NCBI GenBank assembly: GCA_050084515.1
Contig: CM114271.1
Location: 14,694,001 to 14,758,000, forward strand
Source: Blasia pusilla
Taxonomy: Eukaryota
DNA length: 64,000 bases
Direction: 5' to 3'
Part shown: positions 1 to 62,989 of the stretch, piece by piece
Layout: each line of letters starts with the position of its first letter
Position numbering within the stretch: position 1 is the first letter of the stretch
The notes under the pieces: generated by a model
What the model saw: the letters and a program-made list of their open reading frames with translations, nothing else
What the model was told of the DNA's origin: nothing
Databases searched by the model: none
Position numbers and translations under genes: made by a program

Positions 1-22
1 AGCATCCACAACTTCTAGAGGC

Positions 23-335
23 TATTGAAGATTGAGTTACAGTCAAGCTTATGAGACACATGAACTGCTACATTTGGCACTCAAAGGAAGTAGGGAAGCT
101 TAATCTTAGTTAGTCAATTAAGCACAATTATCTTAACTAGGGTTAGTTAATCACAGTTAGTCTAACTCGAGACTTTGGTTAAGGGTAGGGTTAGGGTTTT
201 CTTGTACATATCCCATATAATTGAGAAGAGGACCAACCTCCATTCATTCTCTTATTGCAGATTTCGTTCTCCATGGTGATGTGTGTATGTGAGAGCCGTT
301 TTCCAGGAGTTATGATTGTTAAGCAGTTTTTCACA
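23..335 (+). repeat. 5' LTR of Copia-1
   Basis: Direct repeat of 3985-4296, ends in CA, followed immediately by the PBS. Confidence 0.93.
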
Positions 336-3300
336 TGGTATCAACGCGAGAGGAGAACATCACTTGAAATTCTTAGTGTTTGAAGAGAGAAGAGAGGCAA
401 GAGAAGGCACAATTTCAGTTTGGGAGAATGAAATTTTATTCAAAGCTCAGTGGGTGCAGATTTCAAATGGAGCTTTGACGGTGATAAAACTTTGGAGGCA
501 TTTTTTAGGGCTTTCCTGATCGATTCAGCCGTTTGGGTCCGCTGAGGCTAGAATGATGCCAAAGGTTGGTTCTAGCAATCTTGTAGAGCTCGTTGAGAGC
601 TTAACAATACACCCAAACTCGCTCAATTTTTGACACTATGAGCTCTTGCAGCATCAATTTCCATGTAGGAAAGTGCAATTAGTGAAGAAAAGTTGTGCAG
701 TTTGCTCTCTACACGCCAATTTTGACCAGTTCTTTCATACAGTTGATCAATTTTGGAAAATTTCACGTCAATTTTTGTGTAGGAGTGGTCTATGCTTCAA
801 TTGGAGCAGTAGAAAGCGTGAAATTATGTTTTTGTGAGTAAAATCGTTTATCATGGAGTATTCCTCAACAGCAATCACAGGCGAGAATCTAGACAAGTAG
901 AATTACAATGTCTTGAAGTTTCGCATGAAACAATTCTCATGGGTCAAGAAGTATGGGAGCTTATCACAGGTGATAAGTCCAAGCTAGAAGGAGACTCAAC
1001 AGACTTGAATGTTCGCGCTTGGAACAAACGCGCAAGGCAAGTAATCCATTATATTTCAATAACGATAAGTTCGCCTATGATAGGTCACATCCAAGATGTT
1101 GATATTCCAAAGGAGGCCTGGGATGCATTGGAAAAGTTGCTCGAGACATCTAAAAAGGCCATAAAGCTTCAATTGAAATAGTAATTGAATGAAGTGAGGA
1201 AAGGATCGCAAAGCATCAATGATTATATTTTGAGTATCAGACATATTATTGATCAGTTGAATAGCATTAGAGTGATAGTAGAAGATGATGATCTAATTTT
1301 ATTCACTCTTCAAGGCCTTCCAAAGGATTACAAGTCCTTTGAGACCTCTATCTCAGTGAGAGAGAAGTATCCAACCTTTCAAGAGTTAGTTAGCAGCAAA
1401 GGGTCCATGGATCTTACAATTACTGTTGGATAAAGGGTAATTATGCAAAATTTTGCTTCAAGAAGAGGGCAAATATGAGAACATGAGCCTTACAGCAACA
1501 AAACTATGTGGAGCAACAACACCAAGAGGAGTACCAAGAACAACAACATTCACAAACGTAGCATCTCTTGGTCATGACTCATCATATAGGAGCAATGGTC
1601 AAGAAAGACTCGACAGTAGATTGGTACATTGACTCCGATGCATCAAATCACATGACCTCACAAGCGAGATGGTTCAGTAGTTTGGAGCCGGTGAAAGATC
1701 TTGCAATTGTGCTCATAGGAGATGACACTCAACATCATATCACGCATACCGATAAAGTTCCAATAGCATCAGATGGTCTTTGTGCTCTTGGAAATGTTCT
1801 CTATGTTCCTACCATTGCAAGAAATCGGATCTCTGTAAGACAGATAGTAGAAAAGGGTTATCAAGTGAAGTTTAACGCAGATGGTTATTTTATTGAAAAA
1901 ATGGATGACCAGACTACAATAGCCATAGGAACTAGATCTGGAAGAATGTTCAAATTAGATGTTTCTATGCTAGAGATTCAAACAACAATATATGGTCAAA
2001 CTGGCCAACAAGTCACAAATCTAAATGTGTGGCATAAAAGATTTGGACATATGAATTTTCAAAGATTACAAAGTCTTTCATCATCTTATATAATAATAGG
2101 ACTCCCTAAATTAGCGAGTCCTGTTATGCTAGAGGTATGTCATGCTAGCCAATTTGGAAAACAAGCTAAGTTCATGATAAAACTCCATTCGAAGTCTTCA
2201 GAGGAAGTAAACCTGAATTTTCCTTCTTGAAAGTATTTGGTTATATCTATTACGCTCATGTTCCTTCTGAGAGACGTCAGAAATTAGACCCCAATTTTGA
2301 AAGATGTATCTTTATTGGCTATGCTGATGGAACTAAGGGGTATAAGTGCTATATTCCATCCTCTATGCAGCTTATTATTAGTCGAGATGTTGTCTTTCAT
2401 GAACTAAAGTCATGGTATGCTCCATCTGAGCCTATTCCACTTCTAAACTTGTCTATTGAGGGGGAGAATATGACTATAAACCAACAAACATTATCTTCAA
2501 CTTCCTCAAGTACTAGTGCAGGATTAGGAGAGGTCATAGATTCATCGGTTAAATCTGTGAGTCCATGAACGGGAAGAGTACATATTCAGTTTGTTGACAG
2601 TAGTCAGAGCTCGAGTCACGTGTCAGAGGCATCTACCTTTGAACAACAACTTCGTAGATCAAGTAGAGTTACACATCCAGTTCATAGATTCATAAATGAA
2701 GGTTTCCTTGCAACACATCATGCATATATGATGACTACCCTTCAAGAGCAGGAGCCGAGTTGTTTTGAAGAATTTGCGAGTAAAACCGAATGGATTGAAG
2801 CTATGAAGGAAGAGCTTGCTGCATTAAGACATCAACAAATATGAGAGTTGGTTGATATATCTTCCGGAAATATGAGATTATTGGTTGCAAATGAGTTTAC
2901 AAAATCAAACGCAATCAAGATGGTACAATTAACAGATACAAAGCGAGATTGGTGGCTAAGGGCTATGCACAACAATATGGTATCGATTATGAGGAAATAT
3001 TTAGCCCTGTTGCAAATATCGCGACTATAAAAACAGTGGTTGCAGTTGCAGTAAGTAAGAAGTGGAGATTATCTCACATGGACGTCAAGAATGCCTTCTT
3101 GAATGGAGATCTATACGAGGAGGTATATATGACTCAACCACTTGGATACGAGTATCCTAAGTTTCCATTTTGCGTATGCAGGTTGAAGAAAGCTCTATAC
3201 GGGCTCAAACAAGCTCTAAGAGATGGGTATGGCAAGATTACATACATCCTACAAGAGTTGGATTTTAGGATATGTGATTCTAACTCCTCGTTATATGTCT

Positions 3301-3984
3301 TGAGAGGACAAGATCATACAGTTCTCATTATGTTGTATGTTGATGATCTCTTGATTAGTGGGATTACTAAAGAAATGGTATAACAAGTCAAGCTTAATTT
3401 ACAAGTAGAATTTGATATGAAGGACTTGGGAGAACTCAAGTACTTCCTTGGTATTGAGTTTATCAAGGTTGGACAGAGCATCTGGTTACTACAATGAAAA
3501 TATTCTCTTCATATGCTTTCAAAATATGGTATGACGGTTTGTAAGCCAATCTCTATACCATTGGACCAAACCGTGAAGCTAAGAGTCAATGAAGGAGAGT
3601 TGCTTGCAGATTATAATATGTACATGCGCATGGTTGGAAGTTTAATCTATCTAACTATAACCAGATCAAATGTGAGGCGGTGTGGCTTCATCGATTACTT
3701 GTTGAGATTGGTGTTAGTAACTTAGGACCTAGTGTAACATATGCAGACAATATTAGCAGCATCAAGCTTGCCAATAACCCTATGTTTCATGCTCGTACAA
3801 AGCATGTTGAGGTGCACTATCATTTTATCAGAGAGAAAGTGTTTGGAGGAGAAATTGATCTTGTGTATATAGGTACAAATCAACAAATTGATGACATCTT
3901 TACAAAGGCATTGTATAGAGATAAGTTTGAGATGTTTAGAAAGGATGTAGGCATTAGAGATATCGATATGAGCTTGAGGGCGAG

Positions 3985-4296
3985 CATTGAAGATTGAGTT
4001 ACAATCAAGCTCATGAGACAGCTGAACTGCTACATTTGGCACTCACACGAAGTAGGGAAGCTGAATCTTGGTTAGTCAATTAAGCGCGATTATCTTAACT
4101 AAGATCAGTTAATCACAATTAGTCTAACTCGAGACAATGATTAAGGGTAGGATTAGGATTTCTTGTACATACCCTATATAATTGAGAAGAGGACCAACCT
4201 CCATTCATTCTCTCATTGCAAATTTAGTTCTCCATGGTGTTTTGTGTGTGTGAGAGCCGTTTTCCACGAGTTATGCTTGTTTAGTAGTTTTCCACA
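3985..4296 (+). repeat. 3' LTR of Copia-1
   Basis: Direct repeat of 23-335, preceded by a purine tract and followed by the TSD. Confidence 0.93.
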
Positions 4297-4301
4297 GAGG
4301 C

Positions 4302-7300
4302 GCCCAAGTGAGAGTTTGCCTGAGGCCTACACCTGCTAACACCGGATAATGAATGTCACTAAGGAGGTGACAGAGGCTCAGGCTATCCCCTCATGATACA
4401 CGATGTTGGACCAGACCTTACGGACACATGTGCGAGAGGGGGTGCTTCTTATGAACACGTCCCCTACATTGAGAGATGTTTGTAGGACCGCCGAGAACAT
4501 TGAGGGCAACATGACGGAGGAGACCGCAGCCACCATGCGTTATGGGCAAGAGCAATCACGATTTCTTGCACCACCAGTGTAGCAACGTGGATTCCGATAT
4601 AGGTTTGTGGTACCACGAGCTTAGGCAGGTTACCGAGAGGTCGTGCCACGGAGACCTGCACCTTCATATGCGGCTCAGCAGTAGCTGCCTATGATTATTT
4701 GTTGGTCATGTGGTGGAGCCCATTATCAGCGCGATTGCACTTGTCAGGATCATAATCGTTTGCCTTAGCATGGAGGAGGAGATGGTGCTACACCAAGAGC
4801 TTATCAGTGTGACTATTGTCAAAGGTACGATCACACACGCACTAGGTGTTTCAGCTTGCACCCTAAGTAATATTTGGATCGAGCACCAAAAAGGGCACCA
4901 TTGCAAGTTGCCGGTCTGGGTGGGTGTAGAGGTCGTACACCAGGTGGTCTCGTTGGGGGACGAGGAGTTGGATTCGCCCGAGAGGATGGTGGAGTTGCCG
5001 GTGGAGGATGAAGAATCCCATCACCTCGACGCGTCAAGAGAGACATCGGGCATGAGGCTGGGATGGCAGCTCAGATACAAGAGCTACAGTAGTAGATTGC
5101 CGCTGTGGCATTGAGGTTACCCGATGCGAGATCCGTGGCATCGACATCTTATGGAGCCTCCAGAGATATGGAGGATCGTGGTTGGATGTGTGCGGTTTCT
5201 TAGACGGAGGCCGCCACAGTTGTTACGCGTGGAGCAACCGTAGAGTTGGATCCAGAGCAAGGGGAAGCCAGGAAACAGACCAAGCTTCCTAAGTCCTTCA
5301 TGCTGTCCGATGCAATCAAGATCCCATCGATGGGTCCTATTCAGAGTTCTCATAGAGTTGGTGATGTTGTTGGTGTGCAGGCATGAAGGGCGATGGGAGA
5401 AACGAATGCAATGATTCCTATTTTTTATGCTCAGAAGGAGCATGTGTCAAGCACGTTGTTGGGGGCGGCCACTATTGTGTTCCGCACTCCTTTATTTTTT
5501 ACTTCCGATGTTGTGACGTTGGGAGGCATGCTCGCCGAGGTTTTTTGGGTGGCCGCAACGCTATATGAGCGTGGAGTTGGAGTTCTTGCATCACGTTTAG
5601 AGGTGATTGTAGAGGAGGTGATGGACCTGCCCTTGGAGCTGATGTTCATGCCATCCACGTCAGATTCATGGCAGGCTGCGGCTGCTAGGATGGCGGAGAA
5701 GCCTGCTAGACCCATGATAGAGCGTGCCATGGCTTCTCTTGGTGTTGTTTTTCTAGATAACCGGGGAGAGGTCTTCCAGTTGGTGAGTCCAAGAGGTAGA
5801 GCTTTTAGTCGGCAACGCATCTTGTTGGATTCGAGAGCGCAACCTCTGATGTTGGGGAAAGCGACATTCAGAGGTTTGGGCCTGACGAGGGCCGATGTAA
5901 AACATTGTCCATTCTAGATATAGACATCCTTAGGTGGAGCAAGTACCACACAGTTTATCACCCAACATGAGGTCGTGGTGAAGATTTTCCTGAGACATCC
6001 TACAAATGAGTCCATGGTGCGAGCCAAGGCGACAATGATTGATGTAGAGTCCTACGACATCTTGGTTGTTGGAGCAGTGTTGTACCCAATGGAGTTTTCC
6101 TTGGATTATTGGGAGGAGTCAGCCTTCTACAGACCAAGATGGCAGTCAGATGATGGATGCCTTAGCTAATTACCCGTTTGATTCACAAGTGCAGTGATCA
6201 GCGCCAGCTTGGAGAGATGGCGACCTTAGCACCATTTAACAGTGCCACCACTTGGCCTAGTGATTTGATTGAGGGACATGTCCATGCAGTGGATACTCTC
6301 GTTCCTGACATTTCTATGGAGAGGAGTGTCATGGTTGCCGTACCTGTTTGTGGTGGAGAGGTGCCGCTTTGGGGTTCGACTGAGGAGCTTCGACGCTTAT
6401 CCACTCAACATGTGAAAATCGCATGGAGGGAGACGTTTGCACCATAGTGTGATGGGTCAGAGAAACTCGAGATAGCCATGAGTGCTACTATGATGCCTTT
6501 AAACAATGCCCGATTGTGTGGTGCATCCATAAGGAGGGTATTCGTGTGTTGGATCTCTTTGGAGGGATCAACATTGGCTTAGCTGCTATTTTGCAGGCTA
6601 GAGTCCGCATGCAGTAGTACTTGAACGTGGAGGTTGATGATGTTGCAAGGCGCGCTTCACTTCACCATGTGGTGCAGTTACGCCTTCATTTTCCCGACTT
6701 GTTATCTGGATCCGCCATCAAGGGTTACCGGAGTTCCCTACCAAGGGACATTTCATTGTTGGAGGCGGAGGACTTGGAGCGGATAGGGACCATAGACTTG
6801 GTCATTTTTGGTTGGCCGTGTCAGGGCCAATCGAGTGTTGGATGAGGTAGTTGGTTAGCTGACTCTTGGTCCATGTTGTTTTGGGAGATGATACGGATTT
6901 TGTGGCACTTGCAAGAGCATCAGTCCCGTTCTCCAACATACATTCTGGAGAATGTGCCAATTTTGGGCGATTCGAGGTCCCGCGTGGTGACGAGTGCCCA
7001 ACTCGTGCGTGCATGGATCGGCTCAGTAGTGTTTTTTGGATGCGGCGAATGTTAGTTCTAGAGCACACCGCCTGCATCTTTCATGGACCAACTTGGTACC
7101 ATACGAGGTGTTGTGGAGGGCATATGCACGAGTGGAGCATCGCTCCTAGTTGCTGGTGGATTCCACATAAGATCCGGGATGTCAATCACACGCTGTGAGG
7201 CACGATGATCGACCGCCATTGACTGTGGTCAACAGGATTGGCATGCCATGGGCAGCCTTTCCCATATTTGTGAGTTTTCTTGCTTCCCATGGATTGAATG

Positions 7301-7630
7301 AGACCAGACCTGGCTTGGCTTGGATCTTGACTAGGTACACAGGTTGGTGGAGCCCAACGCTGATGAGCGAGCGAGCGGCAATGGGATTCCCCATAGGAGT
7401 GACGGTAGTACCGTCACTTTTAGAGGCATGACGACATCATGTCTTGGGTTAGGCATTGGACCTAAACTGCTTGACATGGATTTTCAGCTTAGGAGTAGTT
7501 GAGCCACAACATGGTAGCCACAACATCGAGCGTGGTTTTGGGCACTACATGTGGAGATCAGAGGTTGCAGTTGGATGCAGGGCAAGGACAAGTGTTACTG
7601 TCGAAGATGGTGTTGCACCATAGCAACCAC
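4302..7630 (+). mobile_element. Ty3/gypsy fragment carrying a DNA methyltransferase (copy 1): gag-protease-DNMT
   Basis: Two CCHC knuckles (CWSCGGAHYQRDC at ~4700, CDYCQRYDHTRTRC at ~4810); retropepsin-like ILLDSRAQ at ~5820 and YDILV at ~6055; then a C5-MTase domain. Linker and MTase are homologous to the RT/IN-bearing copy at 57-62 kb. Interrupted in gag by Copia-1 and truncated before RT. Confidence 0.85.
6534..7500 (+). pseudogene. DNMT3-like C5 cytosine methyltransferase domain (retrotransposon-borne, disrupted)
   Basis: Motif I IRVLDLFGGI; motif II YLNVEVD; motif IV DLVIFGWPCQG; LFWEM; motif VI YILENV; motif VIII RAHRLHLSWTNL; ERAAMGFP; motif X RHHVLG. Spread over several frames with stops. 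Confidence 0.9.
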
Positions 7631-9065
7631 CTACACATTAGAAAAATCAGAATCCCTCTCCTTACAACATAGTACAATCAGACATAATATGACCCCATTA
7701 ATACAATGACTTATCTTACCAAGTAGACCAGGTTGGTGATCATTTGGTGGAACCTGTGGGGCAAGTCCAAGATTTGGGGCAAAGAAATGTCCACCAAAGA
7801 AGCCAATGGGTTGGCCCCATCCAAGAGGAATAGAACCTGCATGCCATACTTCAATATGCATTAACAATATGCTTGTAAGGGCTGATGGAGCCCTCAAAAA
7901 ATGACCCCTTGTTCAAACTTCTAACTTCATGAAACAGTATGGGAGGTGTTTAGGATCCTTTTGAGTACTTGTCATGCCCGAAGGCCATTGTGTGGGCATC
8001 TGGAACCCTAGGTTCATCCCAAGAATCGGCCATTGTAGGACTCCGGGAAGATGGGAAAGTGGATTCTTCTCACTTTTTTTTTCTTCTTGCCTGGACTAGG
8101 ACGCTATCGCTAAACAATCTAAGTGAGTCATTTTAGTATTTGCAAGAAAGAAGTTATAAACAAATAAAGTACTATGCAATTATTTCAATGTTTGCAATTA
8201 AGAGACTTGTTACTTACACATTCGTCACACGCCTTGCCACAATTCTTCTTCTGCCTTTATGGAGACTTCCCCTTGGCTACTCGAATCTATTCTAAACGTT
8301 CAGGGGAAGATTGTTGAGGTGTTGCATCATAGTCTTTATCGGACTCATTATTACTACTGAACCCTTTCTCTTCATCATTTGATGAGTCCTCCGACATAGT
8401 TGTTTTCTATGCAACACTTCGAGTATTATATACCTTTGGAGTTGATTAACAAACACCCTCACTGGTTCTTGCTCTCTTTTGAAAAACAAGTTGGTTAAGA
8501 GGTGGAAGAACTCTCCTTCAAACCAAATTCATAGCCAATCCATCTAATGGTAGTAAGATTATAGTCACAAAGGATAAAAATTGAAACCATTATAAAGTAA
8601 GTCCACCAAAGAGCAAGTTCAAAGAGTACTTCTTACCGAAACTCCTCTCCAAGTTTCCTTGTCGCCTCTCTCACAAAAGCCACACGCTCCTCACGTAGTC
8701 GATGGTATTTACTGCAAGGACTCTCCTCTACAATGTGGGTCTTGTCATCACTCTCAGAGTCTCTGCCCACCTCCGATGGCATGATCATTTAAACGCTAAT
8801 GAAATTGGACCCGATGTCAAACTACAATCAAAGTCCAATTGTAAGTACTTCTCTAGGAATTTTTTTCTCAAAAAATAGATATGTCATCAAGTTGGGTAAA
8901 GTACCTGAAACAGATAGATCCAAAATCCAAAAAAAACATTTAGAAAACTTAATTTTCACAATTCCAAGGCATACTATTATCATTGAAAATCCTCCTCACT
9001 TAAAACCTTACAAGGTAAAGTTGTTGCCCTACTTGTATAGAATAACACCAACATTGATGATTTGA

Positions 9066-29296: not shown

Positions 29297-29664
29297 TGTC
29301 ATGACCATATGGATTATGTCATAGAGTATAGTGTGCTAGTAGAGGCCAGACCTTATGTAGGGCCCTAGTGGCTAGGTAGAGATACGGTTTCATACATAGG
29401 GTTGGGGGTTACTCAATTGAGGGTGACTTTTCCCATAGGGCCTGCTCTTAGGTTGGAGGATATAGTGTGGAGTGCACTAAAAGAATAGTTAGTTCTTTGA
29501 GTTGAGCGTGTTGCGTTGGGAGTTAGCCTTGGTAGTGAGTAGAGCTCTTGGCTATCGTGGTTCCCGCAAGCTTCGACCTGGATTCTCCCATTGTGGAGTG
29601 GGTTTGGCTCGATTGTATGTGATTCTATATGTGTTTAATGATAGTAGTTCTTTCACGGATTTCA
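29297..29664 (+). repeat. Terminal repeat segment B (368 bp) of the DNMT/PHD gypsy family
   Basis: TG...CA ends; highly similar to 55077-55435 and to the reverse complement of 57191-57558; followed by ctcaaagaacta and ~1.4 kb of unassigned sequence (putative leader). Confidence 0.9.
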
Positions 29665-54310: not shown

Positions 54311-55076
54311 ATTTACTGTGATTCCTAATGCGCTCCCTAGTTATGAAAGTTTAAGACGATGCTGGTAGGCTATGCAAATTAATTGCCATGTGTAGGTTTA
54401 GGAGTTACTATTTTATGTTCGGTCGGTTTAGGTTGAGGTCGTTCGCAAGTCCTCTGTAGTTTCTTACGCGGATTTTTGTACTACACAAAAATTGACCACA
54501 ATAGGTCGCTACCGCTGAAGGTATTGGGAGAGTACCTTCATTGTGGACTCTTCTATGGGGGCTATGAACCTCGGCACTTTGGTCTACATGTCTTATTAGT
54601 ATCATAACTCGCCCCGAGGCCAACAATGCCAGCTAGTTACATGTGAGTGCGCAAGTAGGGTTAAAGTCTAGAGTACTCGATCTGAGTACTTCGAGATAGA
54701 GAAGGCCAAGTGTAAAGCCATTCGTACATACATATTTCATCTTACACCGTGTATCCCCAAGCAACTTTCATTCTCAAGTAAGTTTTACATGTCTGTAGAT
54801 TACTATGCTACTCATGATCTACGGAGTTGAGTCTTCCTAGCTATCAAGTGAGAGCATAATCTAGATGTTCACTACAACACCTTTTCCTTTTTTCCCTTTT
54901 TGAGGCAACTTCTTAGTTGCGTCGAGATCTGAGCTAGGTGTAGTAGGTACAACAACAAGGCCGATTGAGCATCTCTCTGTCGATGGTGAACGACACTCTT
55001 ATGGGTTGGGTTGTGGTGTCTTCTGAAGTTTCTTTGCAGATTGTCCCTCAATAGCACATTCCTTTTCATTGCCAGG

Positions 55077-55555
55077 TGTCATGACCATACGGATTATGTC
55101 ATAGAGTATAGGGTGCTAGTAGAGGCCATACCTTATGTAGGGCTGTAGTGTCTAGGTAGAGATGCGGTTTCATACATAGGGTTGGGGGTTACTCCGTTGA
55201 GGGTGAATTTTCCAGTAGGGCCCGCTCTTAGGTTGGAGGATATACTGTGGAGTGTACTCAAAGAATTGTTAGTTCTTTGAGTTGAGCCTGTTGCGTTAGG
55301 AGTTAGCCTTGGTAGTGAGTAGAGCTCTTGGTTATGGTGGTTCCCGCAAGCTTCAATCTGGATTTTCCCATCATGAAGTGGGTTTGGCTCAATTGTATGT
55401 GATTCTATATGTGTTTTATGACAGTAGGTCTTTCACTCAAAGAACTAAAGTTGTGGTACACTTGTGTTTGTGGATGCTCTCGTCTATGTTATGTATGTAT
55501 GTGAGTATGATATATCAGCGATGTATGTTGTATGATGATGTGGATTCGCACGCCA
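55077..55555 (+). mobile_element. Miniature B-PBS-A derivative of the DNMT/PHD gypsy family
   Basis: B at 55077-55435, ctcaaagaacta at 55436-55447, A at 55452-55555; flanks cagg / tagg (4-bp TSD with one C>T). Confidence 0.8.
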
Positions 55556-57084
55556 TAGGCCTCCTATGTTTATAAGGGGAAGTCCCTTGTTCCTCGAAGA
55601 GGATCTCATTTTTGGAGCTCCCACAGGATTTGGGAAATACCCTTTTTCTGATAACGCAGGGTGTTCCCCCACTGGTAGGGAGTCTTTTATTGCATCCTCG
55701 AAGTCGGGAGTGTGCTCGGGTGTAAGTCTCTCACCCCAAGGAGAAAATTTGTGGAAGTGGGATTTCTTCCACTTACTCAAATGCATACAGTCCTCTTGGG
55801 AAATCTGTGACCATTTGGAACTCTCCAACACTTGGAGATCACCTGACTTTACACCATAGTGCTTTTTTGATGATGTGGTCTTGGTAACGCTTTTTCCCTT
55901 CCCTTATGTTGACTTTTTCCTTGTGATCCTGGTTGCCATTCTATCTCATTCTTTTCTGTTGCTTGCTTGCTATGCTTGTAGGGTTGAGTCGTTGTTGGCT
56001 TAAAAGGAAGGGACGGGGAGCCGTTTGCGGCCTATCGAGCTGAAGCTGAAGTCGAACCTGAAGAAGCCTCTCGAGCAAAACCTGAAGTCAAACCTGAAGG
56101 AGCAGAAGTTGAAGTCAAACCTTTAGCTAGCTAGCGTTGTTGCAGAGTGGAGGTGTTGAAGTCGAGCGATATTCAAAGATATGTCGAATACATGCATTAT
56201 GGCAGGTAGATTGACACGTTTAGTAGAGCTACTTGAAAGCTTACCCTTATCGACTACAATCGTAAAGCTACTTGAATAATACATTAGTGTATAGTAGATC
56301 TGCAAGATCCCTAACACAACCTACTATATAGTTCTTATCGACTAAAGAAATGAACCTTAGTAGCTTAAGCCTCTCTGGCTTATGTAATACGAAACGCATT
56401 TACCTCTTCCAAGTAACGCCTCAAAGTGCATGCACAGAATGGAGTCTGTCAATTGGATGGAAGCAATAAAATTTTTTTTTGGTAAGCTCAAAACCCTAAG
56501 CACGATATATGACAACTCTTTGAGAAATGGGAGGGTGTCTACATCGACGGATATCCCTTGTCAGATCGTAACTGTTGGGTGGTAAAAAATTCAAAAAAAG
56601 CCGTGAGACCACTTTGGTGCAGATCTATGGAGGATCCATGAAAATCAAAAACCATAAGACTCACATGGGAAATACGCGTCCCAAGCTCCCCTCGAAACAC
56701 GTGCCGCAAAGGAAGGGAATCACATGAGAGGAACGCCCGAAATGGAATAAAGCATACTTTCAATTGTGTAGAGTGCCACCAGTCAATAACGCGAGGGTTT
56801 GCACTACAAGAGTGCATTGGCACTTAATAGATAGATTAGAGAGTGCTGCCTTGATTTTCAAACATCTCTATGCTTGACATGTGGCAACCGGGCAGCAAGA
56901 AAATGTTTTCCATTCTACGGACAATAATGAGTTGCACACTAGTATTATCAAAAGAGAATGGGGTTTGGTAACCCCTTCCTCCTTCTTTGACACTTAAAAC
57001 ATTTTGGCCTCTTGCGGTGTTGATACTTGTAGTGTTTTCCATGTGGCTTAACATGTTTAGGTATAATAGATGATTTAAGAGATG

Positions 57085-57664
57085 TGTCGTGTGAATCCAC
57101 ATCATCATACAACATACATCGCTCATATACCATACTCACATACATACATAACATAGACGAGAGCATCCACAAACACAAGTGTACCACAATTGAAATCCGT
57201 GAAAGACCTACTGTCATAAAATACATATAGAATCACATACAATCGAGCCAAACCCACTCCACGATGGGAGAATCTAGGTCAAAGCTTGCGGGAACCACCA
57301 TAGCCAAGAGCTCTACTCACTACCAAGGCTAACTCCCAACGCAACAGGCTCAACTCAAAGAACTAATTGTTCTTTGAGTGCACTCCACACTATATCGTCC
57401 AACCTAAGAGCGGGCCCTATTGGAAAAATCACCCTCAACTGAGTAACCCCCAACCCTATGTATGAAACCGCATCTCTACCTAGACATTGCGGCCCTACAT
57501 AAGGTATGGCCTCTACTAGCACACTATACTCTACGACATAATCCGTATGGTCATGACAACTGTCGTGCAAATCCACATCGTCATACAACATACATCGCTG
57601 ATATACCATACTCACATACATACATAACATAGACGAGAGCATCCACAAACACAAGTGTACTACA
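57085..57664 (-). repeat. Composite 3' terminus A(57561-57664)-gt-B(57191-57558)-at-A(57085-57188)
   Basis: Two 104-bp A copies flank one 368-bp B copy; every segment begins TG and ends CA. Confidence 0.92.
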
Positions 57665-57839
57665 ACTTGCTCCCCTAACTGGCGGTTAGGTCCCTCTAAC
57701 TCCCAAGTAGCCCTATACATCTACTACATGCTATACACCTTCTTGGGTGCACGAATCAAAAGGCCGGGTGCTAGGTTGCCCCATCGTTAGTTGCATATCT
57801 GTAATCCATATCAAGCAAAGATCAATTCATCAACCTCTC

Positions 57840-58133
57840 CTAAGTACATCGAGGACAAACCCACCTTCCAGTAGGAACAACATCCACATGTGGAGTCAAA
57901 CACATCATGTGCCAACCCCTAGAACACCGATCACACACCAACATACGGGCTTCGTTACCAGCAGACCCACACAACATGCACCTCAAGCTAGCACGTATCA
58001 TGGCTATGCTTGGGTCAACAGTACCATCCACATTTGGAAGATGACATGGCGCACAATTACGCACATGGTCCTTCCAAACAACTCCATCACGACCCTCCAA
58101 CATGAGAACTCCAGAAGCTAACACCTCGCGCAC
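57840..58133 (-). CDS. Integrase C-terminus ending in a PHD finger
   Basis: CMLC-x11-CDRC-x4-H-x2-C...WVCPRC, a complete C4-H-C3 pattern directly after the integrase C-terminal region. Confidence 0.9.
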   Translation of the reverse strand: MREVLASGVLMLEGRDGVVWKDHVRNCAPCHLPNVDGTVDPSIAMIRASLRCMLCGSAGNEARMLVCDRCSRGWHMMCLTPHVDVVPTGRWVCPRCT

Positions 58134-61100
58134 TCATAAAATAGTGCGGCCTGCCGTCACATCCAACGTTGTCGGTGCAATCTGCTGCAAATAGACATAG
58201 TCCCCCACATGGAACCTACAAATTGATGGTTGATAACTTCCACTCCGAATGGTTGCATACCGCAACGTATCCCTGTGTTAAGCAATGGCAAGATTCTCAA
58301 AGGCTATTGGCATAACTCTCCGAAAGAGCTCTGCCCGCTGAGAACACACTCTCATCCACATCTCTTGGTCATTAAGGTTCACCACCTCACTAGACTCCCA
58401 ACGAATTGCTGTTGGCAAGTCTGGATATCGGCCGTATAATAGAAAATAAGGTGAGAAGGAAGCCAAGGATGCTTGGCGACTGAACCTATACCCCATGGCT
58501 AAACATGGCAACTGAATATCCCAGTCTCCAAGATGCCCCTTTTGTAGGCCATACTTGCGCAATGCCCTTTTCACCGTCTGAACCACATGCTCAGCCAAAC
58601 CATCCGCCTCTGGATGATCTCAAGATGTGGTCCGATGATCAATCAACGCCTTGTCACACAAGACTTGAAACTCACCCTGAAACTCTGTACCTTGGTCGGT
58701 CAACACTTCAGCTGGTGCACCAAAATTACTAAGCACTCTATCAAGAAATGAATATGCCGTTCCCTCACTTGCCTTATCAGGTAATGCCACCAACTCAATC
58801 CACTTGGAGAAGTGCTCCACCATCACCAACACATATTGATGATGTCGTATAGTCAACGGTAACGGTCCCGCAAAGTCCATACTCGAACGGTAACCCAACC
58901 CCATAATAGGCAAGGGGTGTAACTGTGATGTAGGGGCATTGAATGATGCCCTCACCCGGTCACAAACCATACAACATGACACCAACTGCTGCATCTGAGT
59001 ATGCATGCCACGCCACCAATATTGACCAAGGAGTAAGCCATACGTACGCTTTACCCCAAAATGTCCCAACTCCTCATGGGCATGTCGCACAATGCGCTCT
59101 CTCTGAGCCAAATGCAGCACTACTCGTACTCTACCATCCTCCCACACACAGAGAATCTGTGTTCCCTCCAATCGATACCTCTTAGCACGATGAAGAACAT
59201 GGTCTCGCTCCTTGGCTCTCACTATGCCTGGCACCCTACTGGTCCGTAGGAACTCCAACACCAATGCATCATCATGAATATCACGCTGATCCGTACCACC
59301 ATCTCCATCCTTAGGATGTGAAGGCTGGCCATCTACCCTCTGACTAGAGTAAGATGTCATGTGGTCCTCCATACTAGAGTCCACCCCTAACCAACATAAA
59401 AAGGCGAATGCATGCCAACCTGGCACCATCTCCTCATCAACCTCGTCATGCCATCTAGCCCCAGTTGCATCCTCTTGGCTAGTACATGGGTTCCTACTCA
59501 ACCCATCAACATCAAGGTTGGCAACTCCAGGTCTATGTACCACATGGAAGTCATACTCCTGTAAGATAAGAGCCCACCGTGCAAGCTTCCTTGTGAGCTT
59601 GTCAGACTCCATCAACCACTTGAGCGGCTGGTGATTAGTAACAAGGTAAACTGTGTGCCAAACAAGTAACACCTAAAGTGTGCCACAACCCACACTAGTG
59701 CCAAGCACTCTCCCTCATATGAATTGTAGCGCGACTCCGCTGCATTATTCGAACGACTTGCATAGGCCACCACAAACTCCATGTGCTCATCATCATGTTG
59801 TGTCAACACCGCTCCAAGTCCCAACCTACTCCAATCAGTATGTAATTGAAATGGGCGCCCTCTGATAGGTCTCCTCAAGATAGGCGCCGCCACCAACTAG
59901 GCCTTGAGCTCCATAAAAGCTCTCTCCTGATCATCTCCCCAGTGCCACTCCTGATCTGATTTCAACAATTGGTTCAAAGGCTTTGCGATAGCACTAAATC
60001 CCTTCACATACCTCCGATAGTAGTTCGCCAATCCCATGAATGCCCGAACTCTACTCACATCTATCGGACGAGGAATAAGTGCAATAGCCTCCACCTTTGC
60101 TTGATGAACTCCCAAACCACCTGGATAGATCACATGACCCAAATACTCAACATCCTCATGGAAGAACTTACACTTTCCTGGATGCAAACGTAGACCATGA
60201 GCTTTCAACCGCTCAAACACCATCTGCAAATGTATCTGATGCTCCTCCACCGTGTTACTGAACACCAACATATCATCAATGTAACACCGAACAAAATCCA
60301 ACCCTGCTAGGATCCTGTCCATCACTCTCTGAAACTCGGCAGATGCATTCTTCAACCCCAAAGGGTAAGAATTTCCACTAGTACAAACAATCCTTGCCAT
60401 GAGAGTTGACACCCCAAAATGTTGTCTTGGCCTTGTCACTCTCTCGAATCGGCAACTGATGATATCCTGCCCGAAGATCCAAAGTACTGAAAATCTTTGC
60501 CTGTGCGACCACATCAAAGATCTCCTCAAGTGTAGGCATGGATTACCTATCAACCTTGGTGTGCCGATTGATAGGACGGTAATCTCCACACATCCGCCTA
60601 TCCGTGTAGTTGCCATGCATTTCCTTTTTAGCAGGCATGAGAGTGGTTGATGCATACTCTCCATGCGACAACTCCACTAATCCAGCCTCCAAAAGGTCCA
60701 ACGTCCTACTCTGAATCAGATCCCTCTCCATATCACTATATCGGTAGGGACGACAGAAGATTGGTGTATCACTAGCCAAATCAATCCGTATACCGGGTCC
60801 AACCAAAGCACCCAAGTCCTTCATGCTAAAGGCAAAACAACTCCTATAAGCACGTAGGAACTGTGTCAAGCGTTGTTTCTCACCTCTCATAAGCTTGGGC
60901 CCAAGTAATGGCTCCCAAGTCTCCTCCACTGGCACACTAGAGAGAGAGGACGATGCCATTTGCTGCTACGCAACCCCCTCACAAGATAGTACACCCTTAG
61001 CTACACCATCATCTGAGCAAATAACTCCTCCAGCAGCATGAGCAACCAACTCCACATGCCCAGCCATTACATCCCATTTACTCCAAGGATGCAAAATACT

Positions 61101-61209
61101 ACTCTCCTCGCCCCCAGCCGATACCTCTACCATCTCGGTAGCCATCGAGCTCATCACAAGGGGTGGAAGACCCACAAACATAGTCCGAAGTCCACGCTGC
61201 TCGGCCATA

Positions 61210-62160
61210 CCAAGACTCAAAATCCAAGTCAAACAATTCAGGTCCATGGCGTGATCCAACACATGACGTCGTGAAGCCTTAGAAATGGAAGCAACCGCTG
61301 TCACACCAGTAGCAAATCCCATCGCACGCTCTCTCTCATGAGCATTAGGCTCCACTAACTGTCGCACATGAGAATCCCATACAAGCCCATGAACACCTTC
61401 CCTGTAGGCATATGACGAGGAAAAACTCACAAATGTGGGTAGTGCCATCCTAGGCTGGCCCACACGGTTCACCACTTCCATGGGTGACCGATCAATAACC
61501 CTCACCACTTGAGAAAGTCGCCCAGTATCCAAGATACTATCCATTGTAAGGCAAGGATCCCACTGCACTGCATCATATGCTCGATGTAGAACCTCCCTAG
61601 GCAACAAGTTTGTCCACCACAAGCGTGGACGATGTGCACGCGAGCCAACTCGCGCTGCATCCAACAACACTGTTGGTCCAATCCAAGACCGCACCTCATG
61701 AACACTCGCCATCATCCGGGTCCGAGTGTCACCCAACAATGGAACATTCTCCAGAATGTAAGCTGGAGCACATGCCTGATGAACCTGAAGATGTCGTAAC
61801 ACCCGTAACATCTCCCAAAACAATCAAGACCTAGGATCGTGTAATCCCTCAGCACGACCAACACGTGTATGACCCTAACATGGCCATCCAACAATCACCA
61901 AATCCACAGGACCAACCCTCTCAAGGTCCTTTGCCCCCAACAATGCAATGTGTGAAGTCAAAGCACCCTGGTACCCACGAATAGCTGATGGCGGCAACAA
62001 CTCACGATATCTCCGCATCAACTGACCGATATGTCGAGATGAGACTCTCTAGGCCGTCTCATCTCGCTCCACATACATGTATCTCCGCACAGGAATACCG
62101 GTCTGCAACACTGCAGCCAAACCAGTGCTAATCCCACAAAAGAGATCTAACACACAAATG
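61210..62160 (-). pseudogene. DNMT3-like C5 cytosine methyltransferase domain (single frame, three point stops)
   Basis: ICVLDLFCGISTG, YMYVERD, GPVDLVIVGWPC*G, LFWEMLR, YILENV, LLDAARVGSRAHRPRLWWTNL, ERERAMGF, RRHVLDHAM. Confidence 0.93.
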
Positions 62161-62989
62161 CCCTTCGGCGGATACTGCCATACAATGGGTTTAGTATCCA
62201 AAGGGAATACCCCAACAAGACCAGAAATAGGAGTCCACCATGGGGCCTCATCTTCCTTGCGAGGTATAACAACCTCACACCAAGCCTCCTGCACTAGGCG
62301 ATCAGCCTCTTGCCATAGTGCACCGCCTAAACTCCAAAGTGGCACATCCAACAATGAGGATGCCACTACTGCAAAACTAGGGACCTCCTCTACCTCCGGG
62401 GGTTGGTATTTTGACAGGAGAGAGTAAGAGAGGAGAGGAAGAGAGGAAGAGAGGAGAGTCTCTCTTAAAAAAAAAAGGCCAAATCCGCCTCCTCTCTTCA
62501 AAACTTTTTGACATATTTGAAATTTTTGTTTGCTTTAAAATTCAGGAAATCTTTAGAAGAGAGTATTTAGTGGTCCACATTTGGCCCTAAGAAAACCTCC
62601 TCTTTCTTGGGGGCGAGAAAAAAGGAGACATCATAAGACCACCCTAAACATTTTTCCATCACTCTCCATGTGAGCCTAAGTTTCTTAACATTCCCTGTCT
62701 CGGTCAACAAAAAGCAGTGCCCTTGGTATTTTTGTTGGAGGACCACCCGGATGGGTACCTCTCTTTTTGCAGGTATTTTTTCCTGCATTATGGCCTCCCC
62801 TAAATTTCCCCATAACCAACTTTCTGTCGGTTATGAATGGTGTCTGCTCAAGATCAACTTTCTGAAATGTGAACAAATCAGATCCTAAGGCTGAGAAACC
62901 GAGAAGCTGCACCCCTCCCAACCCGTAAGAAAGCTCACCATAAGAAAGGAAAAGATTTTTAGAAGTGATTTTCTTCCATCCTGCACCCA

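What the first reader, a model, noticed from the sequence alone, without database searches (positions are those of the whole stretch)
4302..7630. Second, diverged MTase-bearing copy places the domain between protease and RT
Seen: here gag with two zinc knuckles and the protease are followed by the same linker (VPLWGS..AWRE versus VPLWSL..AWCE) and an MTase with an intact GWPCQG. The two copies differ substantially in protein sequence yet keep the catalytic motifs. Inference: the MTase is a long-retained family component under purifying selection, not a one-off gene capture.
Basis: partly seen in the sequence, partly recalled or inferred. Interest (0 to 1): 0.78.

Follow-up and report, generated by a model that had tools for sequence, protein, structure and literature searches.

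The report
Decayed retrotransposon carrying a DNA methyltransferase
This stretch is a broken, long-dead piece of a jumping gene that carries its own DNA-methylating enzyme between its protease and its reverse transcriptase, and it belongs to a family so far described only in a green alga but evidently old, widespread and still transcribed in moss-like plants.

Summary
Real, and mostly as described. Window 4297-7620 (+) holds the end of gag (two zinc knuckles), a protease, a conserved linker and a Dnmt3-type C5 cytosine methyltransferase (MTase) with an intact GWPCQG. It is a pseudogene fragment: 7 stops and 4 frameshifts in the linker and MTase alone. A Copia insertion cuts its 5' side, and it has no RT. 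The other copy (62397-57085, minus strand) runs linker-MTase-RT-RNaseH-integrase-PHD finger. It has 10 stops and 2 frameshifts, and its own motif IV reads GWPC*G.

The two MTases are 51% identical in protein and 59% in DNA. Transversions (247) outnumber transitions (222). dN/dS is about 0.2; a transversion-only test gives 0.34 raw, 0.20 corrected. Neither refutation criterion is met.

Relatives with the same order occur in Marchantia, Sphagnum, Calypogeia and Klebsormidium, and 19 metagenome loci are collinear with copy 2. Across those 19 loci the MTase (omega 0.22) is nearly as constrained as RT (0.16) and integrase (0.17). A relative's model matches DNMT3A/3B (TM 0.79-0.84).

Stranded RNA reads from 95-99% similar sister copies cover copy 2.

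This is a new member of the published Gypsy-DNMT3 kind (de Mendoza 2018), here in a bryophyte-like genome.

The parts
1..22 (+). Probable upstream remnant of copy 1, split off by the Copia insertion. GAGGC at 18-22 repeats 4297-4301 (putative target-site duplication).
   Evidence: Sequence read; Copia LTR pair. Inference only: 2-3 unexplained bases lie between 22 and the LTR start.
4297..5383 (+). Copy 1: C-terminal part of gag (reading frame of 4298), with 11 in-frame stops.
   Evidence: P0037 residues 65-136 match 4634-4867, E 1.3e-12. No Pfam hit for this piece.
4700..4738 (+). Zinc knuckle 1, CX2CX3HX4C. The Marchantia relative P0037 has the same spacing.
4808..4849 (+). Zinc knuckle 2, CX2CX4HX4C.
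5663..6170 (+). Copy 1: aspartic protease. The catalytic motif reads LLDSRA (D-S-R at 5828-5836) where relatives have LLDSGA.
   Evidence: Frameshift-aware alignment to P0015; relatives' sequences. No Pfam hit.
6358..6507 (+). Copy 1: conserved linker, an N-terminal extension of the MTase (VPLWGS 6361-6378, AWRE 6421-6432).
   Evidence: Linker omega 0.26 between copy 2 and 19 loci. Helix 38-56 in the relative's model, where 10-residue blocks run from pLDDT 52 to 96.
6510..7515 (+). Copy 1: Dnmt3-type C5 cytosine MTase. Motif I at 6549-6578, motif IV (GWPCQG) at 6810-6827, motif VI at 6942-6959. The 6358-7515 alignment (linker plus MTase) has 7 stops and frameshifts near 6508, 7032, 7333 and 7371.
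   Evidence: Pfam PF00145 E 1.8e-10. tblastn E 2e-49.
7516..7620 (+). Copy 1: tail of the spacer after the MTase. Homology ends here, before any RT.
57085..62397 (-). Copy 2 as a whole: linker-MTase-RT-RNaseH-integrase-PHD plus 3' terminal repeats. It is cut at the 5' side near 62397. The 1515-codon read-through has 10 stops and 2 frameshifts.
   Evidence: Loose read ends at 62397 and 57191.
61194..62384 (-). Copy 2: linker (62384-62163) and MTase core (62162-61194). Motif I LDLFCGISTG at 62150-62121, motif IV GWPC*G at 61889-61872, motif VI ILENVP at 61757-61740.
   Evidence: PF00145 E 7.1e-8, 32.7 bits.
59523..60869 (-). Copy 2: reverse transcriptase (60869-59897, YIDD at 60283-60272) and RNase H (59896-59523).
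   Evidence: Pfam RVT_1 E 5e-20 and RT_RNaseH_2 E 1e-25; coordinates.
58278..59270 (-). Copy 2: integrase (H2C2 zinc domain and core domain).
   Evidence: Pfam Integrase_H2C2 E 1.8e-14 and rve E 6.9e-13.
57843..57980 (-). Copy 2: PHD finger (C4HC3) at the C-terminus of the integrase, where chromoviruses carry a chromodomain.
   Evidence: Pfam PHD E 1.7e-10. 71% identical to Marchantia Mp_7g09570 (P0052).
57085..57665 (-). Copy 2: 3' terminal repeats in split-direct-repeat order. B1 57665-57561, A2 57562-57199, B2 57189-57085.
   Evidence: Metagenome relative L070 has the same order, with A1 at its 5' end.
55073..55555 (+). Solo A-B terminal-repeat remnant of the same family (93-95% identical to copy 2's A and B), lying tail-to-tail with copy 2.
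29297..29656 (+). Solo A repeat of the same family (93% identical to copy 2's A).

Best explanation
Window 4297-7620 is the middle piece (end of gag, protease, linker, MTase) of an old, dead Ty3/gypsy-type retrotransposon of the 'Gypsy-DNMT3' kind. The minus-strand copy at 62397-57085 is a younger but also dead member of a different sublineage of the same family. It supplies the rest of the order: linker-MTase-RT-RNaseH-integrase-PHD, then split direct repeats.

How it works in live family members:
- The Dnmt3-type MTase is translated inside the Gag-Pol polyprotein, between protease and RT.
- Inferred: the protease releases it together with its conserved N-terminal linker helix.
- Inferred: it methylates cytosines de novo on the element's newly made cDNA or on the fresh insertion.
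- Inferred: the PHD finger on the integrase reads histone H3 tails and steers integration.

Shown here: homology, the Dnmt3 fold of a relative, the domain order, purifying selection on the MTase comparable to RT and integrase, and strand-specific RNA from sister copies.

Inferred only: catalytic activity, substrate and benefit to the element. I put the chance that intact members are active DNA methyltransferases at about 0.7.
For: Identity and order:
- PF00145 hits both copies above the cut-off. The rest of copy 2 is RT, RNaseH, integrase and PHD by Pfam.
- Copy 1 is collinear with protease-linker-MTase of P0015.

Dnmt3 type:
- phmmer of relative P0002 (68% identical to copy 2) against PDB: the best hits are all DNMT3A/3B/3C, E 2e-7, against M.HhaI 0.012 and DRM2 0.55.
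- The AF2 model of P0002 from 115 sequences has mean pLDDT 85.3. Every Foldseek PDB hit listed is DNMT3A/3B/3C, best E 1e-18. The catalytic-domain chains have target-normalised TM 0.77-0.84, over about 330 aligned columns.

Family:
- 77 proteins of similar length and 30 longer ones match.
- All 16 named Marchantia rows and the one Sphagnum fallax row among the longer hits show gagZn/PR-MTase(-RT...) order.
- K. nitens KFL_000540020 (P0077) matches at E 1e-31 and runs from the MTase into the start of RT.
- 19 of the 29 metagenome loci aligned span MTase to integrase collinearly, at 70-77% amino-acid identity.
- L070 shows the whole element: A1-gag-PR-MTase-RT-RH-INT-PHD-B1-A2-B2.

Selection: copy 1 against copy 2 gives omega 0.21, and a raw transversion-only ratio of 0.34. 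Copy 2 against the 19 loci gives MTase 0.22, RT 0.16, RNaseH 0.14, integrase 0.17 and spacer 0.47.

Distinct sublineages: blastn aligns only 323 nt, at 68.7%. In the MTase tree both copies sit in a 48-row clade (SH-aLRT 100). Copy 1 is near its base and copy 2 is nested among Marchantia, Sphagnum and Riccia rows.

Transcription: three stranded RNA-seq runs of the same species label give depth 5-141 per bin over 57201-62225, almost only with the first mate on the + strand. Depth beyond 62427 is about 0. Of the laid reads, 1670 of 1707, 1566 of 1588 and 1670 of 1702 are 95-99% alike, so they come from sister copies.

Published: KnitGypsy-Dnmt3 sits in the Pol ORF of a Gypsy element, has Ka/Ks below 0.2, and has DIRS-like repeat structure (PMC5890265, section 9 read in full).
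Against: - Both window copies are pseudogenes, so nothing here is functional now.
- dS between the two copies is near saturation (1.9), so that ratio is rough.
- The codon alignments are protein-guided, which favours low dN.
- The 19 comparisons share one deep branch and are not independent.
- None of the 80 metagenome loci has a long uninterrupted pol ORF. The longest ORF on the matched strand is 957 aa. 76 of the 80 MTase matches carry stops; the 4 without are partial.
- Among close pairs of those loci the MTase omega rises to 0.58, against RT 0.36. That fits neutral decay after insertion, but it also means recent constraint is not shown.
- In the published yeast assay the KnitGypsy-Dnmt3 domain gave no detectable methylation. 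The authors call this inconclusive (PMC5890265, section 10).
- My trees contain no cellular DNMT3, so I did not test whether the element-borne MTases form one clade apart from host DNMT3.
'Bryophyte-like' rests only on the nearest named relatives.
- Copy 1's basal position rests on a long branch (0.64) and an unstarred node (86).
Confidence: 0.85

Rival explanations
1. The two copies are recent products of one element, and their difference is post-insertion decay (methylation-driven C>T). On this reading the 'diverged yet conserved' pattern says nothing about selection.
For: Copy 2 does show such decay. Against the DNA run X1, the window has T or A where the reads have C or G at 93 listed places, against 27 the other way. 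Both copies carry many stops. CpG observed/expected is 0.65 and 0.56.
Against: - 247 of the 469 differences are transversions.
- Four-fold sites differ by transversion at 40%, against 13.8% at zero-fold sites.
- Copy 1 shows no C>T excess at family-conserved sites.
- blastn aligns only 323 nt.
- The copies fall in different parts of the family tree.
Confidence: 0.02
2. Each copy, or each host lineage, captured a host DNMT3 gene on its own: repeated one-off captures rather than one retained module.
For: DNMT capture by retroelements is known to be recurrent (PMC5890265 abstract; preprint 10.64898/2026.05.21.726589, passages). My trees lack cellular DNMT3 sequences.
Against: - Both copies and the bryophyte relatives share the same non-catalytic linker (PLW...AW.E) and the same insertion point after the protease.
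- All 19 rows with the PR-MTase-RT order lie on one side of a branch (SH-aLRT 96). The tree needs one change of order, against a mean of 17 in label shuffles.
- Element-borne relatives are 30-46% identical to P0002, whereas DNMT3A/3B are about 21% identical in the structural alignment.
Confidence: 0.04
3. The MTase domain is retained under selection, but not as a DNA cytosine methyltransferase. It may instead methylate RNA, or serve as a structural or nucleic-acid-binding part of the polyprotein.
For: The KnitGypsy-Dnmt3 domain gave no methylation in yeast. The same paper raises RNA methylation as a possibility for its LINE-borne DNMT (section 11). The family's motif X block reads LGQAMDLN, which differs from the GN(A/S)V form that I recall for bacterial enzymes (recalled, from no call).
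Against: - Family members conserve motifs I, IV (PCQ, with the catalytic Cys), VI (ENV), VIII and IX.
- The model superposes on DNA-bound DNMT3A/3B catalytic domains over about 330 columns.
- The yeast result is inconclusive: in the same assay human DNMT3B also induced no methylation.
Confidence: 0.15
4. The protease-MTase juxtaposition in copy 1 is an accident of nested insertions or of assembly, not a true in-frame module.
For: The window is a dense pile of nested transposons, and copy 1 is cut on both sides.
Against: The same junction stands in many independent records. These include single annotated Marchantia and Sphagnum proteins, metagenome locus L070 and uninterrupted long ORFs such as P0094. 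Copy 1 is collinear with P0015 across the junction.
Confidence: 0.01

Closest known systems
KnitGypsy-Dnmt3 of Klebsormidium nitens (de Mendoza et al. 2018, Nat Commun 9:1341, PMC5890265; sections 9-11 read)
   Same: A Dnmt3-type, non-rearranged C5-MTase lies inside the Pol polyprotein of a Gypsy-type element. There is direct sequence homology: P0077 = KFL_000540020, E 1e-31, with the MTase followed by the start of RT. It falls in the same PR-MTase-RT clade. Selection on the MTase is purifying (published Ka/Ks below 0.2; here about 0.2). The repeat structure is called 'the same as that of a DIRS retrotransposon' in their Fig. 4 legend. Here it is A1...B1-A2-B2.
   Different: The host is not that alga: the nearest named relatives are liverworts and Sphagnum. 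Identity to the K. nitens protein is only 31-39%. The paper ascribes the acquisition to the K. nitens lineage, and its main text names no moss or liverwort element. I could not see whether the K. nitens element has the C-terminal PHD finger, because figures and supplements are not held.
SymbioDIRS-Dnmt3 and SymbioLINE-Dnmt of Symbiodinium (same paper)
   Same: Retroelement-borne DNMTs under purifying selection. The DIRS-borne ones are Dnmt3-like and methylate CG de novo in yeast.
   Different: The element classes differ. Those are DIRS (which use a tyrosine recombinase, as I recall, not from a call) and LINE. The element here has a DDE integrase with an H2C2 zinc domain and the RT-RNaseH-INT order.
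Chromoviruses (Ty3/gypsy elements with a chromodomain at the integrase C-terminus)
   Same: The Gypsy backbone carries a chromatin-reader module at the end of the integrase. The 2026 preprint's introduction states that the chromodomain has a targeting role.
   Different: No chromodomain was found.
EpiLTRs (preprint 10.64898/2026.05.21.726589; abstract and passages seen)
   Same: LTR elements that combine a DNMT with a chromatin-reader domain.
   Different: In the chlorophyte elements the DNMT is appended at the 3' end of pol. The EpiLTR DNMTs are sister to DNMT4 and are combined with an adenine MTase and a chromodomain. The preprint itself says this is distinct from the streptophyte Gypsy-DNMT3.
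Animal DNMT3A/3B/3C catalytic domain
   Same: These are the best sequence and structure matches. Motif order is canonical. The blocks FxGIxTG, PCx, ENV, AHRxRxxWxN and ExERxxGFP...R..LLG align.
   Different: Only about 21% identical. The element's MTase has no PWWP or ADD domain on the same chain. It carries its own N-terminal linker helix and is expressed as part of a retroelement polyprotein.

Membership tests
Gypsy-DNMT3 retrotransposons (KnitGypsy-Dnmt3 kind) | C5 cytosine MTase of Dnmt3 type, not domain-rearranged, encoded within Pol | tested here: met
   PF00145 above the cut-off in both copies. DNMT3A/3B/3C are the best hits by sequence and by fold for relative P0002. Motifs run in the order I, IV, VI, VIII, IX, X.
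Gypsy-DNMT3 retrotransposons (KnitGypsy-Dnmt3 kind) | Sequence homology to the K. nitens element's protein | tested here: met
   P0077 (KFL_000540020): E 1.3e-31 to copy 2. tblastn to copy 2 covers residues 186-533, E 2e-37, and to copy 1 gives E 1e-10. It falls inside the PR-MTase-RT clade.
Gypsy-DNMT3 retrotransposons (KnitGypsy-Dnmt3 kind) | Gypsy-type domain composition (RT-RNaseH-integrase) | tested here: met
   Copy 2: Pfam RVT_1, RT_RNaseH(_2), Integrase_H2C2 and rve, in that order. Copy 1 lacks this part.
Gypsy-DNMT3 retrotransposons (KnitGypsy-Dnmt3 kind) | DIRS-like (split) terminal repeat structure, as in the Fig. 4 legend of PMC5890265 | tested here: inconclusive
   The 3' end of copy 2 is B1-A2-B2, and relative L070 is A1...B1-A2-B2. 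The 5' ends of both window copies are missing. I could not see the published figure to compare the layouts.
Gypsy-DNMT3 retrotransposons (KnitGypsy-Dnmt3 kind) | [quoted passage not shown] | tested here: met
   Omega 0.21 for copy 1 against copy 2. Raw transversion-only ratio 0.34, interval 0.26-0.46. Median 0.22 for copy 2 against 19 loci.
Gypsy-DNMT3 retrotransposons (KnitGypsy-Dnmt3 kind) | DNA methyltransferase activity of the domain | not testable with these tools
   Both copies are pseudogenes. The published yeast assay of the K. nitens domain was negative and inconclusive.
Ty3/gypsy LTR retrotransposon (Metaviridae) | gag with CCHC knuckle(s), a D-S/T-G protease, a YxDD RT, RNase H, and an HHCC plus DDE integrase, in the order PR-RT-RH-INT | tested here: met
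   Knuckles and protease in copy 1 (the protease motif is mutated to DSR). YIDD, RNaseH and integrase in copy 2. The extra MTase between PR and RT departs from the standard order.
Ty3/gypsy LTR retrotransposon (Metaviridae) | Simple long terminal repeats at both ends | tested here: not met
   The repeats are split (A...B-A-B) in relative L070 and at the 3' end of copy 2. Neither window copy has both ends.
Chromovirus clade of Ty3/gypsy | Chromodomain at the integrase C-terminus | tested here: not met
   Pfam finds a PHD finger and no chromodomain.
Plant DRM methyltransferases | Circularly permuted motif order | tested here: not met
   Motif order is canonical. DRM2 chains score E 0.55, against 2e-7 for DNMT3A.

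The most novel reading that the evidence does not exclude
Gypsy-DNMT3 is not a Klebsormidium oddity. It is an ancient retroelement lineage spread across streptophytes, abundant and still transcribed in bryophytes. It carries a self-contained epigenetic kit: a Dnmt3-type writer plus a PHD reader on the integrase. Live copies would methylate their own cDNA or insertion sites and choose chromatin for integration, and so could add to de novo methylation in their hosts. A large sister group moved the same MTase to a second site in pol, between RNaseH and integrase, which would show that the module is portable within pol.
Probability: 0.3. Interest if true: 0.8.

Novelty: new member of a known kind. 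Interest (0 to 1): 0.55.

Why it matters
Cytosine methylation is the main way plants silence transposons, so a transposon that carries its own de novo methyltransferase is counter-intuitive. The only streptophyte case described in the papers I could search is in the alga Klebsormidium nitens, and it is ascribed to that lineage.

The window shows that two diverged sublineages of the same family coexist in a genome whose nearest named relatives of the element are liverworts and Sphagnum. The MTase has been kept about as strictly as RT and integrase, and sister copies are transcribed.

That moves the question 'what does a retrotransposon gain from a DNMT?' into bryophytes. Among them Marchantia polymorpha is, by general knowledge and not from a call, genetically tractable, and its public proteome already holds at least 16 such proteins under 'hypothetical' names.

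The PHD finger, and the sister group with the MTase at another position, add two testable features.

Tried and rejected
- The search for related loci with the broad alignment A1 failed because no stretch was conserved enough. I repeated it with the narrower A2.
- The first AF2 run, with 8 sequences, gave mean pLDDT 45.2 and was not used for any search. The second, with 115 sequences, was used.
- A strict codon-level mask of all CG and CHG sites and their decay products left only 47 of 383 codons. I dropped it in favour of the transversion-only test.
- Pfam found nothing at E <= 0.1 for copy 1's gag piece, protease piece and C-terminal MTase piece. It also found nothing at E <= 0.01 for copy 2's separate MTase ORFs before stops were read through. 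Identification of gag and protease therefore rests on relatives and motifs.
- Looking for the rest of copy 1 (RT, RNaseH, integrase) elsewhere in the window found only a 22%-identical integrase hit at 53576-54280, which belongs to another Gypsy element.
- Run index: no RNA holder was listed. The RNA evidence comes from laying three raw-read runs.
- Literature searches for a description of DNMT-bearing Gypsy elements in bryophytes found none. Passages read from PMC11982613, PMC5784723, PMC9033089, bioRxiv 363937, PMC6453930 and PMC10952607 mention none either.
- Supplements are closed. The supplementary figures and data of PMC5890265 and supplementary Fig. S3 of PMC12344493 may list bryophyte sequences that I could not see.
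- Complex prediction and the ESM Atlas were not used, because no binding claim is made.


Full report
WHAT IS THERE. The window is a pile of nested plant-type transposons: Copia elements, a CACTA-like transposase, Gypsy fragments. The finding's stretch reads, on the + strand, as follows.
- The end of gag, with two zinc knuckles at 4700-4738 and 4808-4849.
- A protease at 5663-6170.
- A linker at 6358-6507 containing VPLWGS...AWRE.
- A C5 cytosine methyltransferase (MTase) at 6510-7515, with motif I (LDLFGGINIG), an intact motif IV (GWPCQG, 6810-6827) and motif VI (ILENVP).

Pfam PF00145 hits the 6510-7031 piece at E 1.8e-10. The other copy's MTase ORF matches this one by tblastn at E 2e-49.

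Copy 1 is thoroughly dead.
- There are 11 in-frame stops in 4298-5383.
- There are 7 stops and 4 frameshifts in 6358-7515, and another frameshift near 6209.
- The protease D-S-G motif reads D-S-R.
- The strongly conserved block RAHRPRLWWTN reads RAHRLHLSWTN.

Copy 1 is also only a fragment. It starts at 4297, directly after the 3' LTR of a Copia element whose LTRs (38-335 and 4000-4296) are 89% identical. GAGGC at 18-22 and at 4297-4301 looks like that insertion's target duplication. Its homology stops near 7620, before any RT, and apart from copy 2 itself no other RT, RNaseH or integrase of this family lies in the window.

The second copy lies on the minus strand, 62397-57085. It runs linker, MTase, RT (YIDD), RNaseH, integrase and a C-terminal PHD finger. 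It has 10 stops and 2 frameshifts in 1515 codons. One of those stops sits on the Q of motif IV (GWPC*G). So 'both keep the catalytic motifs' is only half true. The order protease-MTase-RT is obtained by joining the two copies.

THE ORDER IS NEVERTHELESS RIGHT. Relatives carry it in one piece.
- Of the 30 longer database proteins, all 16 named Marchantia polymorpha rows and the one Sphagnum fallax row read gag knuckles/protease-MTase, and several continue into RT, RNaseH and integrase.
- Of 29 metagenome loci that I aligned to copy 2's read-through, 19 are collinear from the MTase to the integrase at 70-77% amino-acid identity.
- One locus, L070, shows a whole element: A1, gag, protease, MTase, RT, RNaseH, integrase, PHD, B1-A2-B2.
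- The Klebsormidium nitens protein KFL_000540020 (P0077) matches at E 1e-31 and runs from the MTase into the start of RT.

I aligned copy 2's MTase protein to copy 1's DNA with a frameshift-aware aligner of my own.
- 383 codon pairs; 195 identical residues (51%); 59.2% nucleotide identity.
- The differences are 222 transitions and 247 transversions. Third-position identity is 42.8%.
- Nei-Gojobori on 373 codons: pN 0.309, pS 0.691, dN 0.40, dS 1.9 (near saturation), ratio 0.21.
- MTase core alone: 314 codons, pN 0.276, pS 0.684.

A strict CG/CHG mask left too few codons (47 of 383), so I used a test that C>T decay cannot touch, counting transversions only. These are 93 of 675 zero-fold sites against 56 of 140 four-fold sites. 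The raw ratio is 0.34 (bootstrap interval 0.26-0.46), and 0.16/0.80 = 0.20 after correction.

At sites conserved in the rest of the family, copy 1 shows C>T or G>A at 45 of 331. It shows T>C or A>G at 88 of 514, and transversions at 173 of 845, so there is no deamination excess.

Decay is real but small. For copy 2, the DNA run X1 lists 93 places where the window has T or A and the reads have C or G, against 27 the other way. Neither refutation criterion is met.

A CLEANER MEASURE. Copy 2 against the 19 collinear loci lies at an unsaturated distance (dS about 0.77). Median omega by segment:
- MTase 0.22
- RT 0.16
- RNaseH 0.14
- integrase 0.17
- linker 0.26
- C-terminus with PHD 0.32
- spacer after the MTase 0.47

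These 19 values share one deep branch and are not independent. They do show that the MTase and its linker have been kept nearly as strictly as the core enzymes. Among close pairs of the loci, omega is higher (MTase 0.58, RT 0.36), as expected if most recent change is neutral decay of dead copies. None of the 80 loci has a long uninterrupted pol ORF, and 76 of the 80 MTase matches carry stops.

WHAT KIND OF MTase. phmmer of relative P0002 (68% identical to copy 2, no stops) against PDB sequences gives DNMT3A/3B/3C first (E 2e-7), M.HhaI at 0.012 and DRM2 at 0.55. The alignment covers the Dnmt3-style blocks.

An AF2 model from 115 sequences has mean pLDDT 85.3; a first model from 8 sequences was useless. 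Every listed Foldseek hit in PDB is a DNMT3A/3B/3C chain. The best E is 1e-18 and about 330 columns align. Chains holding only the catalytic domain have target-normalised TM 0.77-0.84; longer chains score lower. Motif order is canonical, not DRM-like.

TWO SUBLINEAGES, NOT TWO COPIES OF ONE ELEMENT. blastn aligns only 323 nt between the copies, at 68.7%. In a tree of 79 MTase rows, a clade of 48 rows (SH-aLRT 100) holds both copies and every named bryophyte row. Copy 2 nests among Marchantia, Sphagnum and Riccia rows. Copy 1 sits near the base on a long branch (0.64), outside a 44-row group supported at 86. That basal place is tentative.

TERMINAL REPEATS. After the PHD stop, copy 2 has B1 (57665-57561), A2 (57562-57199) and B2 (57189-57085). 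L070 has A1 at its 5' end and B1-A2-B2 at its 3' end, and its A and B are 73-81% identical to the window's. This is a split direct repeat. The Fig. 4 legend of de Mendoza et al. says the K. nitens element's repeats are 'the same as that of a DIRS retrotransposon'. A solo A-B (55073-55555) and a solo A (29297-29656) of the family also lie in the window.

TRANSCRIPTION. Three stranded RNA-seq runs with the same species label as the best DNA holder were laid on 57000-63000.
- Depth per bin is 5-141 from 57201 to 62225, almost only with the first mate on the + strand. The other direction is at most 11.5. Beyond 62427 depth is about 0.
- In the usual stranded libraries this means RNA of the minus strand, which is sense for copy 2. 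I did not verify the library type.
- 1670 of 1707, 1566 of 1588 and 1670 of 1702 laid reads are 95-99% alike, and only 37, 22 and 32 are 99% or more alike. The RNA therefore comes from sister copies, not demonstrably from this locus.
- At one of copy 2's two frame breaks, most reads carry the unbroken form (33 of 41, 51 of 56, 30 of 33).
- Loose read ends at 62397 and 57191 mark where copy 2 stops resembling its family.
- The DNA run laid 97,937 contig pieces at 95% or more. This suggests many variants, but it is not a copy number.

WIDER FAMILY (OUTSIDE THE WINDOW). A full HMMER pass over 1.84 billion cluster representatives with P0002 found 2363 proteins at E <= 0.001, 793 at <= 1e-10 and 230 at <= 1e-30.

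I examined 80 relatives of 900 aa or more: the long ones among the best 150, plus long cluster members. Eleven have protease-MTase(-RT-RNaseH-integrase). Sixty-seven have the MTase between RNaseH and integrase, mostly with a C-terminal PHD finger. The remaining two rows read PHD-MTase and RT-RNaseH. Pfam confirmed one example of each main order.

On an MTase tree, the 19 rows with the window's order lie on one side of a branch (SH-aLRT 96). One change of order suffices, against a mean of 17 in shuffles, and the K. nitens row is inside that group. I assigned eight of those 19 rows to that order from family knowledge, not from their own flanks. RT and integrase of both groups are about equally similar to copy 2's. 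The hosts of the second group are unnamed.

COMPARISON WITH WHAT IS KNOWN. This is the Gypsy-DNMT3 kind of de Mendoza et al. 2018 (PMC5890265; abstract and sections 9-11 read). That element has a Dnmt3-related, non-rearranged DNMT in the Pol ORF of a Gypsy element of K. nitens, with Ka/Ks below 0.2. The paper ascribes the acquisition to the K. nitens lineage, and its main text names no moss or liverwort element.

Two later papers from the same group speak only of 'streptophytes' and cite that work: PMC12344493 (passages) and preprint 10.64898/2026.05.21.726589 (abstract and passages). Six further searches and the passages read found no description in bryophytes. Supplements were closed and may hold such rows.

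The published yeast assay of the K. nitens domain gave no methylation, and the authors call it inconclusive. Activity of this family therefore remains unshown.

MECHANISM, WITH ITS STATUS. Shown: homology, fold, position in the polyprotein, selection, and transcription of sister copies. Inferred, following the proposals in the paper's discussion:
- The MTase is released from Gag-Pol and methylates the new cDNA or insertion de novo.
- The PHD finger steers integration, by analogy with chromodomains.

I put about 0.7 on intact members being active DNA methyltransferases and about 0.15 on another retained role, on RNA or structural.

VERDICT. Novelty: a new member of a known kind. The added points are land-plant-type hosts, two coexisting sublineages, a PHD finger, split repeats, and transcribed sister copies.

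Noticed in passing
Outside the window: proteins P0095, P0099, P0112, P0271-P0273 and others: A large sister group of Gypsy-type polyproteins carries the homologous Dnmt3-type MTase at a different place, between RNaseH and integrase, mostly with a C-terminal PHD finger. It accounts for 67 of the 80 long relatives examined. All come from unnamed metagenome or assembly sources. On the MTase tree, one change of position suffices. I found no description of this arrangement in the papers searched.
   Followed up: partly
window 57843-57980 (-): A PHD finger (C4HC3, Pfam E 1.7e-10) ends the integrase where chromoviruses have a chromodomain. It is shared with Marchantia Mp_7g09570, with the metagenome loci that align to the end of copy 2, and with the sister group. 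Omega for the C-terminal segment is 0.32. Its histone ligand is unknown.
   Followed up: partly
window 57085-57665 (-), 55073-55555 (+), 29297-29656 (+); L070 1676-2003 and 10238-10805: The family's terminal repeats are split direct repeats (A1 ... B1-A2-B2), not simple LTRs. The window also holds a solo A-B, the product expected from A1/A2 recombination, lying tail-to-tail 1.5 kb from copy 2, and a solo A.
   Followed up: partly
window 23-4296 (+): A Copia element has 89%-identical LTRs (38-335 and 4000-4296) and a putative GAGGC target duplication. It is inserted into the gag of copy 1, which makes copy 1 older than this already old insertion.
   Followed up: partly
window 9066-10930 (-) and 7631-7912 (-): ORFs that look like a CACTA/TNP2-type DNA-transposon transposase lie just beyond the 3' break of copy 1 and may be what cut it. 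This name is my recollection of the family and was not tested by any search.
   Followed up: no
window 11583-13245 (-): A second Copia-type pol (RT/RNaseH region) lies on the minus strand. It is seen only in the ORF listing.
   Followed up: no
window 62400-64000: The sequence that replaces the missing 5' part of copy 2 holds a diverged direct repeat (63018-63237 against 63687-63907, 72% identical). Its nature is unknown.
   Followed up: no
window 57000-63000, RNA runs X22-X24: Some RNA reads join 58312 to 59321 (skipping 1008 bases, with 9 other letters between) and 57616 to 57714. This suggests transcribed sister copies with internal deletions.
   Followed up: no
window 53576-54280 (-): A weak integrase match (22% identity to copy 2's integrase, E 2e-4) points to a fragment of a different Gypsy family.
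   Followed up: no
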